Assembly (NCBI GenBank): GCA_963841025.1
Contig: CAWJBG010000001.1
Location: 300,765-364,764, forward strand
Direction of reading: 5' to 3'
Origin: an uncultured Alphaproteobacteria bacterium
GTDB taxonomy: Bacteria > Pseudomonadota > Alphaproteobacteria > Rhizobiales > Xanthobacteraceae
Length of the DNA stretch: 64,000 nt
Below the pieces are notes generated by a model. It was not told the origin of the DNA. It saw only the letters and a list, made by a program, of their open reading frames with translations, and made no database searches. The position numbers and the translations under genes are program-made. Below, in pieces: positions 55,173 to 60,355 of this stretch (positions within the stretch are counted from its first letter, which is position 1; every line of letters begins with the position of its first letter).

Positions 55173-55247
55173 TGGGGCGTAGCCAAGCGGTAAGGCAGCG
55201 GATTTTGATTCCGCCATTCGAAGGTTCGATTCCTTCCGCCCCAGCCA
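55173..55247 (+). tRNA. tRNA-Gln (anticodon UUG), CCA encoded
   Basis: Manual cloverleaf: acceptor TGGGGCG/CGCCCCA, D arm GCC-AAGCGGTAA-GGC, anticodon arm GCGGA-TTTTGAT-TCCGC, T arm GAAGG-TTCGATT-CCTTC. Close to E. coli tRNA-Gln from memory. Confidence 0.95.
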
Positions 55248-55248
55248 C
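55200..55248. repeat. attL-like copy of 49-bp direct repeat (3' part of tRNA-Gln)
   Basis: GGATTTTGATTCCGCCATTCGAAGGTTCGATTCCTTCCGCCCCAGCCAC is identical to 60108-60156. Confidence 0.9.
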
Positions 55249-55273: not shown

Positions 55274-55819
55274 ATGGCCATCAGCGATTCAACACATTGG
55301 TTCTTCCAGTACGGTAGCCAATATTACGTTGCTGGCCGCTACGCGGCCTTCGCCGGTTTGACGCCTATCGTCGGCAACATATTGCATCACGCCGTTGAAA
55401 TGTTCCTCAAAGGCGTGCTTGCAAAGACAATGTCGCTGAAGGAGTTGAAAGATAAGCTCGGACACGATCTTCCAAAAATCTGGGCGGTGTTCAAAGTAAA
55501 AGTCAACGATAAGAGCTTATCAGCGTTTGATAAGGTGATCGACACGTTGAACGCGTTCGAAGACATTCGTTATCCCAATAAAATCCTGACCGACGGCGCG
55601 GTTTTGCAAATTGACATCACGAAAGTCGGCGCGGCGATGACATCTGGAAGCGGCTCAGGCGCCTCAATGCCGCAATATTCCCTTTGCCTCGAAGAAATCG
55701 ACGAACTTGTCAAAGCGATCTTCAACGCCGCAGGCCGTGCACCTCCGGCCTATCTGCGTTTTGTGAAAAGCGAAGCGAGAGACTTCGTAAACCGGGAGAA
55801 CAACTGCGTTAGTATCTGA
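55274..55819 (+). CDS. HEPN-domain protein
   Basis: 181 aa. Helical pattern A..AGRYAAFAGL..ILHHAVEMFLKGVL..LGHDL..IW..LNAFEDIRYPN matches the classic HEPN (PF05168-type) layout ending in RYP. Assignment is from memory. Confidence 0.55.
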   Translation: MAISDSTHWFFQYGSQYYVAGRYAAFAGLTPIVGNILHHAVEMFLKGVLAKTMSLKELKDKLGHDLPKIWAVFKVKVNDKSLSAFDKVIDTLNAFEDIRYPNKILTDGAVLQIDITKVGAAMTSGSGSGASMPQYSLCLEEIDELVKAIFNAAGRAPPAYLRFVKSEARDFVNRENNCVSI

Positions 55820-55919
55820 GTTTGGGCACGTAGACCGGTGGAGTCGCCCGCGCCAATTGGTGGGTGGGCGCTTGATCTGTCATTTGCTCGGCCGTCGTTC
55901 CTCGATCGAGAGTGAGCCA

Positions 55920-58417
55920 ATGCCGCTTGCTTTGACCATATTTGGCGTATCGACCGCCGGCAGTCAGCCCGTGTTCTGCTACGGGTTTCTACGGCCCGTT
56001 CGGGGCGCGGGCGATTACCAGCCGCCAAATCTTCCCAGGGGCCTCACGGCAAACCGCATCACGCGGACGCCTCTGTCTGGATTTCAGGAAGTTGAAGTAG
56101 TCGCGTGGGATTGCATTTTCCCGACCGGGCTAGAAGAGACTGTGCTGACTCAGTTTTCAGCAGGAAAGCTGACTATACCCGATGAGTGTCCTATAGAACC
56201 GGGCCGTACAGTCGAAGGCGACCTTTGCCCGTTATCATTTATCTTCGACTACCCCACTTGGGTTCGAACCTCTGGCACCGGAATTCTTCAACTCCAAAGC
56301 CTCATTGTCCGAGATGGTATTGATCCAGTCTTTCAAGCCCTGACGCCGGCTGTTGGAGCGGGCGATACTCCTGCCGCCTTGCTGAAGCTAATCGAGGTGC
56401 TGGCCAAACAATCCGGTTTAGAAGAAATCTTTTTGCTCAGGCGTCCAATTGGATTGATTGATCATTTTTGGCGGGAGGACCCTAACTGTTCAACCTCGGC
56501 GCCGCTGTTGAATATCGTACCTGACAAACCCGATTTCCGAACCAAAGTACCCATGCTCAAATGTTATGTGCGCCGTTACGCGTGTAGCGAAGAGCGAGCG
56601 TTTCGATTGCACGTGACAGTTAAGAACTTTGATGAAGTGCTCAGGGATTATCTTGTCGACTTCCCCGCCGGTGCGCCAGAAGTCGCCGTTGATACAAGCG
56701 TCCACATCACCGATGTGTCAGTCGAGGCCTTTAACGAAGACGGAACGATCGCACAAAAGATCATCGCTGTGTTTACTCAAGCAATGGATTTCGGAATCAA
56801 AGCTCTAGGCCGCGCCGACCTTCTTCCAGCAGTTTTCAGTAGTACGCCTGAAACTCAAGACCTGGAAAAACGCGCACGGTTGAGCACCGTTGCGTTCAAG
56901 GGCCCTGCTGCGGGAATGCGGTCCGGCGCGTTCGATGTGCTCCGGCAAAATAGGGAGCGTGTGGATGCCCTACTTGGACCTCAGAAACCATCTGCCGAAT
57001 GTTTTTGGTTCGGCAGAAGCCCTGAAAGTCAAATCGATGTGATCCGCTGGATCAAGACGAAGCTTGAGCAGCCGAATGTCCGCAATGCATATCTAATCGA
57101 TCCCTTTCTCGGAACTGACGCGTTGCGCAGAGTGATTTGCGTCAAGGCAACGAAAACATTGATCTGACACTTCTAGTGTCTCCCGGTCGCGTCAACCCGG
57201 ACGCCGAGACGGTTGATATGCCAGCAACAGAAAATCATATCCAAAAGCTCATTGGCGTAGCGAATGAATGGTCTGAGCAACTGTGTGGCAACATATCAAT
57301 TATTCATATCAAGCGAGGGGAGGATGCGCGTCAGGCGTTTCATGATCGTTATCTGTGCCTGGTCGACCAGGACGGGGTGCCGACGGTATATTTGCTGTCC
57401 AATAGTCTCAGCAAAGCAGCCGGGGATTGGCCCTTTGCCATCAGTGAATTGAGCCGCGTAACTGCTTGGCAGGCTTACCGCTACATCGAAGGCCTTATCG
57501 CAGGAAAGGATGGCGAAAGAGAACTTCAGCCTGTTGAGATTTGGAGGCGTAAGCAATCGACAGCCCCTATTGAAGTAAAGACCGAACAGCCAGATCAAAG
57601 CACGGACCGGCCCCAGTGGGTTCCGTGGGCTGAGTCCTTTCTGAGAAGACTGCAGACGGTCGCCTACCGTAATACCGGGAACCGCGACGAGATGGACGCC
57701 ATAGTTGATCAATGCCTTGTTGAGTGGCCGACTGGCGTCGATGCGACGGTGCTCGCGGATAACTTATTTCGGATAATTAGCTACAGAGCGCAATACGTTG
57801 CGCGCGGCGCAGCCCGCTTCTTATCAGGAAGCGATGCGCAGCAGGCCGTTGGTAGGCGACTGGAAGACTTGCAGCTGGATCATTTTTTTGGCGAGCTTGA
57901 AAAGGGCGATAGAACTCACGGCGTTACGTGGCAATTTCTGGATGGCAGAGACGAGCTGATTGCTTTCCTGGGTCGTGCAATTTCTCGGCTCAGCACTCCA
58001 ACTTATTTCGTTAGAGATCGAATTAACCCGTTAGTCCATTCGTCCATGCAAACGCTGGAGTTTCAACGAGGCGAAACCGATGCCGCGTTTAACGCAGTTC
58101 AAATCGCAACTTGCCTCATAAGCCTTGGACTAGAAGTCGCTGTGGTATCCGACGTCGAATTGAGATTTCGACAAGGTGTCGCTAGTGACTATGTACATTG
58201 GGCCGGACGACTTGTGCGTTCTGACGCAGCGCGTATTCGGTTGGCGTTCGGAGCACACGCGTCCGACTTGTGGATGAATGATTTCACGTTTCTCGCGCGC
58301 CAGATATTGCAGGCCGGGTCGATATTGGGGGAGCCTGTGCAAACCTCGATTTTCCGCGTTCTCAGCGATTCCTTGGTGCCATTGGAATTTAAGACACTGC
58401 TCGGTCAGGCCGGGTAA
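55920..58417 (+). pseudogene. large (~830 aa) uncharacterised protein with central IDPF...HDRY PLD/MIT_C-like module, frame broken at T-run ~57134-57136
   Basis: ORF 55857..57167 (likely ATG at 55920) ends ..NAYLIDPFLGTDALRRVI. ORF 57137..58417 continues LRQGNENIDLTLLVSPG..IIHIKRGEDARQAFHDRYLCLVDQDGVPTVYLLSNSLSKAAG. The second frame opens only at about 57119. Adding one T (GTGATTTTGCG) joins them. Confidence 0.55.
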
Positions 58418-58442
58418 TGAAACGACTGCGCGTCGCCGTTTC

Positions 58443-58470
58443 GGAGGTTCGAATCCTCCCCCCAACCAGC
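58443..58470 (+). other. tRNA 3'-end-like remnant (T arm plus acceptor strand, no CCA)
   Basis: GGAGG-TTCGAAT-CCTCC followed by CCCCAAC. No matching 5' half upstream. Lies between the two cargo modules of the islet. Confidence 0.4.
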
Positions 58471-58541
58471 GGTGAGTGCCCGCTGACCTCTAAGTAGTTG
58501 ATATTCAACCTATTGTATTACCAAAGATTTCCATTGAATAA

Positions 58542-58578
58542 TGTCGGGTTTTTGCTATATTAAGTGTCGGGTTTTTGC
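58542..58578. promoter_or_regulatory. two direct 14-bp repeats TGTCGGGTTTTTGC spaced 23 bp, just upstream of abiEi-like gene (candidate operator)
   Basis: Read directly at 58542-58555 and 58565-58578. The second copy ends 12 nt before the ATG at 58591 and abuts the AAGGAGAGG RBS. Confidence 0.45.
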
Positions 58579-58590
58579 AAGGAGAGGCCC

Positions 58591-59007
58591 ATGCCCCGCC
58601 GAAAGACATTGCGGCAAAGAATCGAGGAGCGGATTTCCCGCCGGTCCGGAGACTCGGTATTCCTCACGCGCGAATTCACTAATCTCGGCGGCGAGGACCA
58701 AGTGCTGCGCGCCCTGCGCACCCTTGTGCAGGACGGGCATCTGCTGCGCCTCGGCTACGGAGTTTATGGGCGCGCCGTCCCTTCGAGCTTATCAGGACGT
58801 CCGATGCTCTACAGCCCCAACGGCTTCATCGGCGCTGCGCGCCAGGCTCTCGACAAGCTCGGGGTCGAATGGGAGCCGACCGAAGCCGAGCGCGCTTACA
58901 ACGAAGGCCGCTCGACGCAAGTGCCGGTCAATCCGGTCGTGCGCGTAAGGGGGCGGTTCAACCGCCACCTCAGTTACGGCAATTCGGAGCTTGTCGTTGA
59001 GCGATAG
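58591..59007 (+). CDS. AbiEi-family (type IV toxin-antitoxin) antitoxin-like wHTH protein
   Basis: N-terminal pattern RQRIEERISRRSGDSVFLTREF....VLRALRTLVQDGHLLRLGYGVYGRA is typical of AbiEi/DUF6088 antitoxins. Overlaps the downstream toxin gene. Confidence 0.6.
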   Translation: MPRRKTLRQRIEERISRRSGDSVFLTREFTNLGGEDQVLRALRTLVQDGHLLRLGYGVYGRAVPSSLSGRPMLYSPNGFIGAARQALDKLGVEWEPTEAERAYNEGRSTQVPVNPVVRVRGRFNRHLSYGNSELVVER

Positions 59008-59926
59008 GCCGACGCTCCAGCAGCTGCTCGAAATACAGCAGCACTTCGAATTGCCGAGTACCGCGCTCGTCGAAAAGGACTGGCACGTCATCAAGGCGCT
59101 CGCCGCGATCATGGCAGTCGACACTAAGCCATTCCGGCTGGTCTTCGGCGGCGGCACCGCGCTCGGGCGCGCCTATGGACTCATCAAGCGCATGTCCGAG
59201 GACATCGATCTGAGGATCGTCGGCGTTGAGCGGCCGAGCCGAGGTCAGTTGCGCGTGCTGCGGCAAAAAATTATGAAGGCTTTGCTGGACGCCGGCTTTA
59301 AGTTCGATCCCGAGAACCCCGAGCATCGCAGGACCATGTATGAGGGGCGCTACACCGTCTATCACCTTCCTTACGAAGCCGTCGCAGAAGGCACCGGAGC
59401 GCTTCGCCCGGAAATTAAGATCGAGACTTCCGCGTTTCCGTTAAGGCGCGATTCCGTCCAACGCCCGGTCTCGTCCTTCATCGCCGAGGGTAACGGCAAG
59501 CCGCCCGAGATTCCTTCGATCGACTGCACCTCAATTCTTGAAACCACAGCGGACAAGCTGGTTGGCTTGACCCGCCGTGCCGGCGCGGAACTCGCGGGCT
59601 TGCGCAAAGAGCGCGATACGACATTAGTTCGGCACATTCATGATCTTCATGCCGTTCGCAGCCAATACGACCCCGCAGAGGTCGCCAAGCTCGCTCGCGA
59701 AATCATGCCCGACGAAGCGGCGCAACGAGCCGACGATTTTCCTGCCTACAAGGCGGACCCACTGGGCGAAACGCTGAAAGCGATCGAAGGCATCGCGGCG
59801 AGCGCCGACTACAAGAGGGATTACGAAACCTTCCGCCGCGACATGGTCTATGGCGACGGCGTTGATTTCGATACTGCGATCAAGACGCTCAAGGAGCTAG
59901 GAGAGCAATTGCGCCGAGCGGCGTGA
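58991..59926 (+). CDS. nucleotidyltransferase AbiEii/AbiGii toxin family protein
   Basis: DUF1814-type motifs (VFGGGTALGRAY, SEDIDLRI, EIKIETS). The start codon is uncertain (TTG 58991 or 58997). Confidence 0.8.
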   Translation: MSLSDRPTLQQLLEIQQHFELPSTALVEKDWHVIKALAAIMAVDTKPFRLVFGGGTALGRAYGLIKRMSEDIDLRIVGVERPSRGQLRVLRQKIMKALLDAGFKFDPENPEHRRTMYEGRYTVYHLPYEAVAEGTGALRPEIKIETSAFPLRRDSVQRPVSSFIAEGNGKPPEIPSIDCTSILETTADKLVGLTRRAGAELAGLRKERDTTLVRHIHDLHAVRSQYDPAEVAKLAREIMPDEAAQRADDFPAYKADPLGETLKAIEGIAASADYKRDYETFRRDMVYGDGVDFDTAIKTLKELGEQLRRAA

Positions 59927-60107: not shown

Positions 60108-60156
60108 GGGATTTTGATTCCGCCATTCGAAGGTTCGATTCCTTCCGCCCCAGCCA
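60108..60156. repeat. attR-like copy of 49-bp direct repeat (orphan tRNA-Gln 3' fragment)
   Basis: Identical to 55200-55248. No tRNA 5' half precedes it. Confidence 0.9.
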
Positions 60157-60355
60157 CTGAAAAATAATTGCTGCGCTGGTTTTTAACGAGCGCGGCACGC
60201 TGATCTATCACTCACAGGGATAATTCCGCGGCGACTTTGTTCAAGCCGCGAGACGTCTGAAATGACGCAACGTCGCAAAAGCTGCTTGGTTGAAGATAAT
60301 CACCAAACGGAGGAGCGAAACCTGAGCTTTTTGTTTGGCGGGCGGCTGCCGCCGA

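What the first reader, a model, noticed from the sequence alone, without database searches (positions are those of the whole stretch)
55274..58417. HEPN protein plus ~830-aa orphan protein with an IDPF...HDRY module: candidate undescribed defence pair
The first two cargo genes of the islet are co-oriented.

- The first is a 181-aa classic HEPN-like protein (..FEDIRYPN).
- The second is a large protein whose middle carries NAYLIDPFLGTDALRRVI-LRQGNENIDLTLLVS..(about 45 aa)..IIHIKRGEDARQAFHDRYLCLVDQDGVPTVYLLSNSLSKAAG.

That '(I/V)DPY/F .. short-strand .. HDR(Y/F)L .. SNSL' pattern is what I associate with PLD-fold/MIT_C-like modules found at the ends of conflict-system proteins. The ~400-aa N-terminal region and ~300-aa helical C-terminal region match nothing I recognise, and there are no Walker motifs.

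A HEPN RNase-like partner beside a PLD-like effector, in a tRNA islet next to an Abi system, fits the defence-island logic. I know of no named system with this composition.
Basis: partly seen in the sequence, partly recalled or inferred. Interest (0 to 1): 0.75.

Follow-up and report, generated by a model that had tools for sequence, protein, structure and literature searches.

The report
Broken Juno-like defence gene beside unrelated HEPN
The large "orphan" gene is a frameshifted relative of the VPA1262 family, recently named Juno and shown to defend against phage, and the small HEPN gene next to it is an unrelated neighbour rather than a partner, so there is no new two-gene system here.

Summary
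There is a 181-aa HEPN-like ORF (55274..55819) and a large ORF (55920..58417) broken by one frameshift. All the quoted motifs are present.

1. **The large protein is not an orphan.** It passes NCBIfam NF040700, "VPA1262 family N-terminal domain" (158.9 bits, cutoff 80). It has about 60 full-length relatives of roughly 830 aa. An August 2026 preprint renamed the VPA1262 family "Juno" and showed single-gene anti-phage defence.

Fold search puts PLD, NucT and PPK1 at the top. The invariant D394 and H475-D476-R477 sit exactly where the published MIT_C-like "HDR" PLD clade has them.

3. **The pair idea fails.**
   - None of 31 loci with relatives of the large protein carries the HEPN family.
   - None of 5 contigs with HEPN relatives carries a large-protein relative.
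   - The closest relative (84% nt identity) shares only 55868..58436, the large gene alone.

4. **The gene is broken here.** It has lost one T from a TTTT run. Ka/Ks of about 0.2 on both sides of the break means the lesion is recent or a sequencing error.

This 830-aa form has a different C-terminal domain from the tested Juno proteins. It is an untested architectural variant of a known kind.

The parts
55173..55247 (+). tRNA-Gln (UUG), the integration site of the islet. Its 3' part, 55200-55248, is the left copy of the 49-nt direct repeat.
   Evidence: ARAGORN; the repeat finder family D1.
55274..55819 (+). Solitary HEPN-T-like gene, 181 aa. Invariant in its family: Y17 Y18 R22 H38 E42 K46 H64 E96 R99 Y100 P101. 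Has Ex3K; lacks Rx4-6H. Not a partner of the next gene.
   Evidence: No co-occurrence.
55920..57167 (+). 5' part of the VPA1262_N_dom (Juno-like) gene, read in frame to the premature stop. Encodes aa 1-406 plus a 9-aa out-of-frame tail. The beta-rich N-terminal region (aa 1-290) is 55920-56789. The PLD module starts at aa 356 (56985). The I-D394-P395-F motif is at 57096-57107.
   Evidence: The 415-aa truncated product is a called gene in the public copy of this genome.
57136..57138 (+). Frameshift site: TTT where the intact relative has TTTT, a loss of one T.
   Evidence: Alignment with L029 and L030. Homologues read ...RRVILRQGNENI... without a break.
57137..58417 (+). 3' part of the same gene in the shifted frame (aa 407-832 plus stop). 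The rest of the PLD module runs to aa 545 (57553). H475-D476-R477 is at 57341-57349 and S494-N495-S496 at 57398-57406. The all-helical C-terminal domain, aa 567-832, is 57617-58414.
55868..58436 (+). Block shared at 84% nucleotide identity with the closest relative's locus (L029). It is the large gene with 52 nt upstream and 19 nt downstream, and it excludes the HEPN gene.
   Evidence: blastn.
58440..58470 (+). Degenerate third copy of the tRNA-Gln 3' end (GGAGGTTCGAATCCTCC..CCCCAACCAG). It separates the HEPN and Juno-like module from the AbiE module.
   Evidence: Sequence; alignment with the tRNA half, the right repeat and the L029 fragment.
58591..59007 (+). AbiEi-type antitoxin or regulator, 138 aa (DUF6088).
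   Evidence: PADLOC AbiEi 6.5e-46; Pfam DUF6088 1e-6.
58991..59926 (+). AbiEii nucleotidyltransferase toxin, 311 aa.
   Evidence: Pfam AbiEii 4.9e-28; PADLOC AbiEii 5.5e-81.
60109..60157 (+). Right copy of the 49-nt direct repeat, a perfect copy of the tRNA-Gln 3' part. It marks the end of the islet.
   Evidence: the repeat finder D1, 100% identity.

Best explanation
The 4.9-kb tRNA-Gln islet carries three independent cargo units, not a HEPN/PLD pair.

1. **A solitary HEPN-T-like gene.**
2. **A single-gene defence candidate.** It belongs to the VPA1262 N-terminal-domain family, whose long-form members are the phage-defence protein "Juno". In this genome it is inactivated by a one-base deletion, or mis-sequenced.
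3. **An AbiEi/AbiEii module.**

The large protein is one polypeptide with four regions:
- a beta-rich N-terminal region (aa 1-290)
- a disordered linker
- a conserved PLD-fold domain (aa 356-545) of the MIT_C-like clade, carrying D394 after beta-2, H475-D476-R477 before beta-5, and S494-N495-S496
- a subfamily-specific all-helical C-terminal domain (aa 567-832)

**Inferred:**
- The PLD-like domain is the effector, a phosphodiesterase or nuclease.
- It probably pairs with a second copy to form the active site, as single-domain PLD nucleases do.
- The variable N- and C-terminal regions sense infection or hold the effector in check.
- The repaired 830-aa form would also defend against phage.
For: **Family**
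- NF040700 hit: 1.8e-46, 158.9 bits, cutoff 80.
- 63 homologues, most 825-845 aa and covering 100% of the repaired protein. Several are named "VPA1262 family N-terminal domain-containing protein" by NCBI.
- hhalign against an annotated Agrobacterium "VPA1262 family protein": 98.5% probability over aa 156-528.

**Function of the family**
- Preprint 10.64898/2026.08.01.741415: more than 100-fold protection by two cloned single genes.

**Fold**
- AlphaFold2 model: pLDDT 81.5, pTM 0.75.
- Foldseek PDB top hits: PLD 7e0m, PPK1 2o8r, NucT 6ehi (TM 0.63 normalised to the target, 174 columns), Streptomyces PLD.
- Top viral hit: the poxvirus PLD-family envelope protein.
- D394 follows strand 387-393, and HDR precedes strand 478-483. 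This matches the PB-PLD1/MIT_C signature described in PMC12065111.
- The PLD module is the most conserved part: 58% mean pairwise identity, against 38-40% for the flanks.

**No partner**
- tblastn of the HEPN protein against 31 loci with relatives of the large protein: no hit. Reverse search against 3 HEPN loci: no hit.
- All-against-all comparison of neighbours in 10 loci of the 830-aa subfamily: no shared neighbour.
- HEPN relatives lie in unrelated contexts.
- Nucleotide homology with L029 is confined to 55868-58436.

**Mobile or defence context of relatives**
- AbiE, BrxR, Mrr, SAVED, restriction-modification genes, HEPN_AbiU2, HipA.
- Relaxase/T4CP, a prophage tail end, SIR2_2.

**Frameshift**
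- One T lost.
- Ka/Ks is 0.19 before and 0.21 after the break, measured against L029.
Against: - No member of the 830-aa subfamily has been tested. The validated Juno proteins are long forms with a different C-terminal region.
- This protein fails the full-family model NF040699: 129.9 bits against a cutoff of 325, with only 30% of the model covered.
- The PLD assignment rests on fold and motif. No Pfam or PDB sequence profile matches the module.
- The canonical HxK(x)4D(x)6GSxN motif is not met.
- The best-known MIT_C domain (MITD1) binds membranes and has no demonstrated catalysis, so nuclease activity is an inference.
- The gene is broken here, so in this genome it may do nothing.
- Co-occurrence was sampled on about 36 loci, not on a full census.
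Confidence: 0.8

Rival explanations
1. The HEPN gene and the large gene form a genuine, lineage-specific two-gene defence system: a HEPN RNase plus a PLD effector.
For: - The two genes are co-oriented, 100 nt apart, and no terminator-like site lies between them.
- Both lie in the same sub-module of the islet, between the tRNA and the middle att-like fragment.
- The closest HEPN relative and the closest relative of the large protein are both 81% identical to the window's proteins.
Against: - 0 of 31 loci with relatives of the large protein carry the HEPN family. 0 of 5 contigs with HEPN relatives carry a relative of the large protein.
- The 84%-identical relative locus shares only the large gene. 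Upstream of it lies a divergently oriented AbiEi instead.
- Long-form family members protect as single genes.
- No neighbour is conserved across 10 subfamily loci.
Confidence: 0.05
2. The large protein is a defence or conflict protein, but its PLD-like domain is not a nuclease. Like the MIT_C domain of MITD1, it would bind or hydrolyse membrane phospholipid, or serve only as an oligomerisation or binding module. Killing or protection would come from membrane damage or from another part of the protein.
For: - The motif is D...HDR rather than HKD.
- The named relatives of that clade include MITD1 MIT_C, which its structure paper describes as a membrane-binding PLD fold (cited in PMC12065111).
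- The top fold hits include true phospholipases D and PPK1, not only nucleases.
Against: - H475, R477 and N495 are invariant over very distant members. This argues for catalysis rather than binding alone.
- NucT scores the best target-normalised TM (0.63).
- PMC12065111 places the HDR clade among predicted nuclease effectors of Menshen and BrxL.
- No membrane-spanning or lipid-related partner was seen.
Confidence: 0.2
3. The frame break is an assembly or sequencing error in a homopolymer, and the genome really encodes an intact, working 832-aa protein.
For: - It is the only lesion: a 1-nt loss in a T4 run.
- The rest of the ORF is intact.
- Ka/Ks is about 0.2 both upstream and downstream of the break.
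Against: - The deposited assembly carries the break, and its annotation calls the truncated 415-aa product.
- A run of four is short for a systematic homopolymer error.
- Defence genes are often found freshly inactivated.
- No reads were available to decide.
Confidence: 0.35

Closest known systems
Juno / VPA1262 family (NCBIfam NF040699; founding member V. parahaemolyticus VPA1262; preprint 10.64898/2026.08.01.741415)
   Same: - Shares the conserved core, roughly aa 150-545: a beta-rich middle region plus the PLD-like module with DP...FHDRY...LSNS.
- Passes the N-terminal-domain model NF040700.
- Is a single gene in mobile, defence-rich regions with no conserved neighbour.
   Different: - About 830 aa rather than about 1,000-1,270 aa.
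- The first 150 aa and the C-terminal 290-aa helical domain show no detectable homology to long-form C-termini or to the split partner protein (hhalign).
- Fails the full-family cutoff (129.9 bits against 325).
- No member of this form has been tested, and this copy is frameshifted.
MIT_C-like 'HDR' clade of the PLD superfamily (PB-PLD1 of Menshen NsnC, BrxL C-termini, MITD1 MIT_C; PMC12065111)
   Same: - PLD fold.
- A conserved acidic residue directly after beta-2 (D394).
- HDR directly before beta-5 (H475-D476-R477).
- The PADLOC NsnC model gives weak hits on the same region in two family members.
   Different: - No significant sequence-profile match to MIT_C, PLDc or NsnC.
- The domain is embedded in the middle of a large protein rather than at a C-terminus.
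- It has an additional invariant S-N-S and an R408/G410 pair.
Single-domain PLD nucleases (NucT, Nuc, BfiI, Zucchini)
   Same: One PLD-fold domain per chain. NucT gives the best target-normalised structural match (TM 0.63, 174 columns). By analogy the domain would dimerise to build one active site.
   Different: - HxR instead of HxK.
- The spacing to the Asp and to the Ser/Asn differs from HxK(x)4D(x)6GSxN.
- Sequence identity is about 11%.
- Dimerisation and nuclease activity were not tested.
HEPN-T family (Pfam PF05168; AF0298-type, PDB 2hsb), for the 181-aa protein
   Same: - Four-helix HEPN core.
- Top Foldseek hits are 2hsb, 1ufb and 1wol.
- Has the Ex3K motif (E42-K46), a conserved R99, and conserved His residues N-terminal to it (H38, H64). 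PMC3710099 describes this pattern for the AF0298 type.
   Different: - Scores below the Pfam gathering threshold (13.6 bits against 22).
- No Rx4-6H motif.
- No adjacent minimal nucleotidyltransferase.
- Has an extra C-terminal extension of about 70 aa containing a beta-hairpin.
AbiE (AbiEi/AbiEii) type IV toxin-antitoxin and abortive-infection system, for the neighbouring pair
   Same: Both components are present, overlapping and co-oriented, with strong profile matches.
   Different: The AbiEi is a short 138-aa DUF6088-type protein. This pair is unrelated at BLAST level to the AbiE pair next to the closest orthologue of the large gene.

Membership tests
VPA1262 N-terminal-domain family (NCBIfam NF040700) | Whole-protein score at or above the curated cutoff of 80 bits | tested here: met
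   158.9 bits, E = 1.8e-46; aa 153-528 match model positions 108-477 of 478. Relatives score 135-230 bits.
VPA1262 family proper / Juno (NCBIfam NF040699; preprint criterion of at least 70% coverage) | Full-length match: at least 325 bits on the 1026-position model | tested here: not met
   129.9 bits; only model positions 249-556 are matched. hhalign with an annotated VPA1262 family protein aligns aa 156-528 only. The preprint's own PSSM was not available.
VPA1262 family proper / Juno | Single-gene anti-phage activity | not testable with these tools
   Shown for the Vibrio and Pantoea long forms only. This copy is frameshifted.
PLD superfamily | PLD alpha/beta fold | tested here: met
   Foldseek PDB: 7e0m at 3.5e-4, 6ehi NucT at 4.9e-4 (TM 0.63), 1f0i and others, all with probability 1.00. 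The top BFVD hit is the poxvirus PLD-family envelope protein.
PLD superfamily | Canonical HKD motif HxK(x)4D(x)6GSxN | tested here: not met
   The sequence is H475-D-R477-x5-D483-x10-S494-N495-S496. Arg replaces Lys and the spacings are longer. No Pfam PLDc or PLDc_2 hit in 22 modules.
MIT_C-like HDR clade of PLD (PB-PLD1/MIT_C) | Conserved D/E after beta-2 and an HDR motif before beta-5 | tested here: met
   In the model's DSSP, the domain's strands are 361-364, 387-393, 415-420, 458-466 and 478-483. D394 follows the second strand and H475-D476-R477 precede the fifth. Both are invariant. The definition is taken from PMC12065111.
MIT_C-like HDR clade of PLD (PB-PLD1/MIT_C) | Profile or structure match to MIT_C (PF16565; PDB 2YMB) | tested here: inconclusive
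   No Pfam hit at E up to 10. 2YMB is not among the 50 hits listed for the whole-protein model. Only weak PADLOC NsnC hits in relatives, E = 0.002-0.006. A search restricted to the domain was not possible.
HEPN superfamily (181-aa protein) | HEPN helical fold or profile match | tested here: inconclusive
   Pfam PF05168: E = 0.076, 13.6 bits, cutoff 22. 18 of 40 family members hit it at E up to 1, best 7e-4. The top three Foldseek hits are HEPN proteins but with E of about 1, target-normalised TM 0.51-0.62. The evidence is consistent but individually weak.
HEPN superfamily (181-aa protein) | Rx4-6H RNase motif | tested here: not met
   No R.{4,6}H anywhere in the protein. Ex3K is present (E42-K46). 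R99, H38 and H64 are invariant. This resembles the AF0298-type exception described in PMC3710099.
HEPN-MNT toxin-antitoxin pair | Adjacent minimal nucleotidyltransferase gene | tested here: not met
   The gene starts 27 nt after the tRNA and ends 100 nt before the large gene, leaving no room for an MNT ORF. No MNT was seen next to five relatives.
Two-gene defence system (HEPN + large protein) | Conserved co-occurrence of the two families | tested here: not met
   0 of 31 in one direction and 0 of 5 in the other. Homology with the nearest locus stops 52 nt upstream of the large gene.
AbiE | AbiEi regulator plus AbiEii nucleotidyltransferase in one operon | tested here: met
   PADLOC AbiEi 6.5e-46 and AbiEii 5.5e-81; Pfam AbiEii 4.9e-28. 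The genes overlap by 17 nt.

The most novel reading that the evidence does not exclude
The 830-aa proteobacterial proteins would be a distinct, untested single-gene anti-phage system. They would share with Juno only a conserved MIT_C-like "HDR" PLD effector core, and they would carry their own N- and C-terminal sensor domains.

More broadly, the whole VPA1262-core family would be a modular effector-plus-sensor family that exists in three forms:
- fused long forms
- this medium form
- split two-gene operons (a core of about 520 aa plus a partner of about 700 aa)

The Juno preprint describes neither a mechanism nor these architectures.
Probability: 0.45. Interest if true: 0.45.

Novelty: new variant of a known kind. 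Interest (0 to 1): 0.3.

Why it matters
The result removes a false lead: there is no new HEPN+PLD pair here. It links an unannotated, broken ORF to a defence family that was named only weeks before the literature cut-off.

It also adds three things that the Juno preprint does not give:
1. The conserved core of the family is a PLD-fold domain of the MIT_C-like D...HDR type. This yields specific catalytic-residue candidates to mutate: D394, H475, R477 and N495.
2. The family comes in at least three architectures, including a split two-gene form in 14 of 14 short-form loci. This points to a conserved effector core with exchangeable C-terminal modules.
3. An 830-aa alpha/beta/gamma-proteobacterial subfamily with an unrelated C-terminal domain exists and has not been tested.

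None of this is surprising to a defence-systems specialist, but it makes the mechanism of Juno directly testable.

Tried and rejected
**Searches that found nothing for the large protein**
- Pfam on the whole protein and on its N-terminal, PLD and C-terminal parts: no family.
- PADLOC 2023: nothing significant. PDC-S05 scored E = 0.016; NsnC scored E = 0.002-0.006 in relatives only. This is expected, because Juno postdates that library.
- Sequence-profile search of PDB with the whole family and with the PLD module: only spurious helical or kinase hits.

**C-terminal domain**
- hhalign of the 830-aa subfamily's C-terminal domain against the short forms' partner protein and against long-form C-termini: no relation, probability below 1%.

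**Other searches that led nowhere**
- Profile search of the 5.8-billion-protein set with the PLD module, meant to reach MIT_C or NsnC: it returned only family fragments. One is named "Phospholipase D-like domain-containing" by UniRef.
- Exact look-ups for the source contig failed, so the organism was not identified.
- The promoter/terminator scan found nothing above shuffle expectation between the HEPN gene and the large gene.

**Ideas considered and rejected**
- Programmed frameshifting or phase variation at the T run. All homologues are single ORFs, and the run has only 3-4 T.
- A conserved link to AbiE. The AbiE pair next to the closest orthologue is unrelated to the one in the window.
Full report
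**1. Observation**

- A tRNA-Gln gene lies at 55173-55247.
- 27 nt later an ATG opens a 181-aa ORF (55274-55819) containing FEDIRYPN.
- 100 nt after its stop, an ATG at 55920 opens a large ORF. It runs in one frame to a premature stop at 57167 and continues in the next frame from 57137 to 58417.
- Re-reading one T in the run at 57136-57138 gives a continuous 832-aa protein.
- The three quoted peptide strings are at aa 389-406, 407-421 and 461-502. There is no Walker A motif.
- Downstream lie an AbiEi (58591-59007) and an AbiEii (58991-59926) gene.
- The whole 4.9-kb stretch is bounded by a perfect 49-nt direct repeat of the tRNA's 3' part, at 55200-55248 and 60109-60157.
- G+C is 0.50-0.57, against 0.62-0.68 outside.

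**2. The large protein is not an orphan**

- Pfam finds nothing.
- NCBIfam gives a hit above cutoff to NF040700, "VPA1262 family N-terminal domain-containing protein": 158.9 bits, cutoff 80, aa 153-528.
- It gives a sub-threshold partial hit to the full-family model NF040699: 129.9 bits against 325.
- A search of the 5.8-billion-protein set returns 63 homologues. They come from Bradyrhizobium, Burkholderia, Pararobbsia, Pseudomonas, Ferrovum and metagenomes, and several already carry that NCBI name.
- An exhaustive profile search of 1.84 billion cluster representatives finds 621 relatives at E up to 1e-3 and 200 at E up to 1e-30. The family is real but not large.

**3. What is known about the family**

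Full-text search finds four papers mentioning VPA1262. A bioRxiv preprint of 3 August 2026 (10.64898/2026.08.01.741415) reports the following:

- The family's function was unknown until then.
- The authors rename the family Juno.

The preprint gives no domain analysis or mechanism. The founding gene lies in the GMT island VPaI-6.

**4. The frame break**

- The closest relative, P0001 (81% aa identity), is intact.
- At the break it reads GTGATTTTGCG where the window reads GTGA-TTTGCG, so one T has been lost from a run of four.
- All homologues read ...RRVI(L/A)RQGNE... without interruption.
- Ka/Ks against that relative is about 0.2 in every domain: 0.19 before the break and 0.21 after it. The lesion is therefore recent, or a sequencing error.
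- The public copy of this genome carries the break, because the truncated 415-aa product is a called gene there.

**5. Anatomy of the large protein**

An AlphaFold2 model built on 48 homologues has pLDDT 81.5 and pTM 0.75. It shows:

| Region | Residues |
|---|---|
| Beta-rich region | 1-290 |
| Disordered linker | about 290-335 |
| Alpha/beta domain | 356-545 |
| Short disordered stretch | about 545-565 |
| All-helical domain | 567-832 |

*Fold of the alpha/beta domain*
- Foldseek against PDB puts PLD-superfamily proteins on top. These are phospholipase D 7e0m (3.5e-4), PPK1 2o8r, Helicobacter NucT 6ehi (4.9e-4, TM 0.63 normalised to the target over 174 columns) and Streptomyces PLDs.
- Fibronectin-III-like hits account for part of the beta region.
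- The best hit among viral models is the orf-virus envelope protein, a PLD-family member.

*Conserved residues*
- Invariant over 48 homologues: D394, P395, R408, G410, F474, H475, R477, S494, N495, S496, F506.
- D-P, R, F-H-D-R and S-N-S remain invariant over 22 far more distant modules, from Clostridium, Peptoniphilus, Desulfovibrio, a spirochaete and others.
- The canonical HxK(x)4D(x)6GSxN motif is not met: Arg replaces Lys and the spacings are longer.

*Match to the MIT_C-like clade*
- The Menshen analysis (PMC12065111) describes a PLD clade comprising PB-PLD1 of NsnC, the MIT_C domain of MITD1, and many BrxL C-termini.
- That clade is characterised by an acidic residue after beta-2 and an HDR motif before beta-5.
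- In the model, D394 directly follows the second strand of the domain (387-393), and H475-D476-R477 directly precede the fifth (478-483).
- It is not supported by any sequence profile.

*Relative conservation*
- The PLD module is the most conserved part of the protein: 58% mean pairwise identity, against 38-40% for the N- and C-terminal regions.

**6. Architecture of the wider family**

In 28 genome loci the core occurs in three forms:
- about 830 aa (this type)
- about 510-660 aa
- about 970-1,270 aa

Key observations:
- In all 14 short-form loci, a conserved ORF of about 700 aa follows on the same strand, overlapping or abutting the stop.
- That partner is collinearly homologous to the C-terminal part of a 1,273-aa fused form (blastp 4e-12). 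The family therefore shows fusion and fission of a core and a C-terminal module.
- The C-terminal domain of the 830-aa subfamily shows no detectable relation to the partner or to the long-form C-termini.
- A profile comparison with an annotated Agrobacterium "VPA1262 family protein" aligns aa 156-528 only, at 98.5% probability.

The window's protein therefore shares the Juno core but is a separate architectural variant.

**7. The HEPN gene**

- Pfam HEPN (PF05168) matches below threshold: E = 0.076, 13.6 bits, cutoff 22.
- The protein has 95 relatives of about 180 aa.
- 18 of 40 relatives also hit PF05168 weakly, best 7e-4.
- A pLDDT-91.5 model has three HEPN proteins as its top hits: AF0298 (2hsb), TT1696 (1ufb) and ST0689 (1wol). 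Target-normalised TM scores are 0.51-0.62, but E-values are about 1.
- Family invariants include E42-x3-K46, R99-Y-P, H38 and H64.
- There is no Rx4-6H motif.
- This pattern matches what Anantharaman et al. 2013 (PMC3710099) describe for the AF0298-type HEPN-T family: the R is kept, the H is lost, another conserved H lies upstream, and an Ex3[KR] motif is present.

"HEPN-like" is therefore reasonable. "RNase" is unproven.

**8. Are the two genes a pair? No.**

- tblastn of the HEPN protein finds nothing in 31 loci that encode relatives of the large protein. The large protein finds nothing in 3 HEPN loci.
- Gene tables of five contigs with HEPN relatives show no large VPA1262-like neighbour. 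Their contexts are: BrnT/BrnA plus DUF4145; unknown small genes (two contigs); an AAA_13 protein; and an integrase plus TIR genes.
- An all-against-all comparison of every flanking ORF in ten loci of the 830-aa subfamily finds no shared neighbour.
- The closest locus (L029) is 84% identical in nucleotides over exactly 55868-58436. That is the large gene with 52 nt upstream and 19 nt downstream. Upstream of it lies a divergently oriented, unrelated AbiEi/AbiEii pair.

Relatives of the large gene sit in mobile or defence-rich settings:

| Locus | Neighbouring genes |
|---|---|
| L029 | AbiE, BrxR/WYL, Mrr_cat |
| L030 | SAVED, XhoI/Eco57I restriction-modification genes |
| L031 | HEPN_AbiU2, HipA |
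| L001 | TrwB/TrwC conjugation genes |
| L003 | A prophage tail-fibre end and an FRG protein |
| L005 | A SIR2_2 protein |
| L006 | A MobA relaxase |

This fits an autonomous single-gene cargo.

**9. How it most likely works**

*Shown*
- Family membership, PLD fold, invariant D/HDR/SNS residues, lack of a partner, and family-level anti-phage activity of long forms.

*Inferred*
- The PLD-like domain is the effector. It is probably a phosphodiesterase acting on nucleic acid.
- It would form its active site by pairing two domains, as Nuc, NucT and BfiI do.
- H475 would be the nucleophile, and R477 and N495 would bind phosphate.
- The faster-evolving N-terminal beta domains and the exchangeable C-terminal helical module would sense infection or auto-inhibit the effector.

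I put about 0.4 on the nuclease step specifically. The main alternative, about 0.2, is a lipid-directed or non-catalytic role like that of MITD1's MIT_C domain. In this genome the gene is either freshly dead or mis-sequenced (about 0.65 to 0.35).

**10. Verdict**

- The PLD and HEPN calls are largely right.
- The "orphan" and "undescribed pair" claims are wrong.

What is there is a frameshifted member of an untested, medium-length variant of the recently named Juno/VPA1262 family. It sits between a solitary HEPN-T gene and an AbiE module, in a small, integrase-less tRNA-Gln islet built by tandem accretion.

Interest is modest. The useful by-products are the catalytic-residue candidates and the split/fused architecture of the family.

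Noticed in passing
window 55200-55248, 58440-58470, 60109-60157; L029 157-204: The islet holds three copies of the tRNA-Gln 3' end: two perfect 49-nt copies at its ends and a degenerate one just after the large gene. The degenerate copy resembles the variant next to the orthologue in L029 (CCCCAACCAG). This suggests two modules, [HEPN + Juno-like] and [AbiE], accreted in tandem at the same tRNA. No integrase is left in the islet.
   Followed up: partly
window 58542-58555 and 58565-58578 (promoter-like site 58534-58561): An exact 14-nt direct repeat, TGTCGGGTTTTTGC, occurs twice, 23 nt apart. It overlaps the only promoter-like site upstream of AbiEi and may be the AbiEi autoregulatory operator.
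   Followed up: no
L008-L019, L024, L025 (short-form loci); L022 1994-5812: Every VPA1262_N_dom protein of about 520 aa (14 of 14 loci) is followed by a conserved same-strand ORF of about 700 aa with no Pfam match. That ORF is homologous to the C-terminal part of a 1,273-aa fused form. This split two-gene version of the family is not mentioned in the Juno preprint.
   Followed up: partly
L029 237-1924 versus window 58591-59926: The closest orthologue of the large gene also sits next to a tRNA-Gln-like fragment and an AbiEi/AbiEii pair. That pair is a different AbiE subtype (AbiEi_1, 274 aa), in the opposite orientation and on the other side. The same kind of hotspot holds shuffled cargo.
   Followed up: partly
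proteins P0223, P0224, P0226 (1,063-1,080 aa): Some representatives share this subfamily's own N-terminus (query aa 1 to about 550-620) but are about 240 aa longer, with a second matched stretch. This may be a fourth architecture.
   Followed up: no
phage record MT836961.1, 5135-5581 (hit H4): An unannotated 8-kb "Bacteriophage sp." contig from human faeces encodes a relative of the PLD module (26% identity, E = 3e-9). The module may also be carried by phages or satellites.
   Followed up: no
HEPN family members P0127, P0133-P0135: A subset of the HEPN family carries an N-terminal DUF2934 (PF11154) extension. Others have N-terminal extensions of 40-60 aa, so the family is not uniformly stand-alone.
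   Followed up: no
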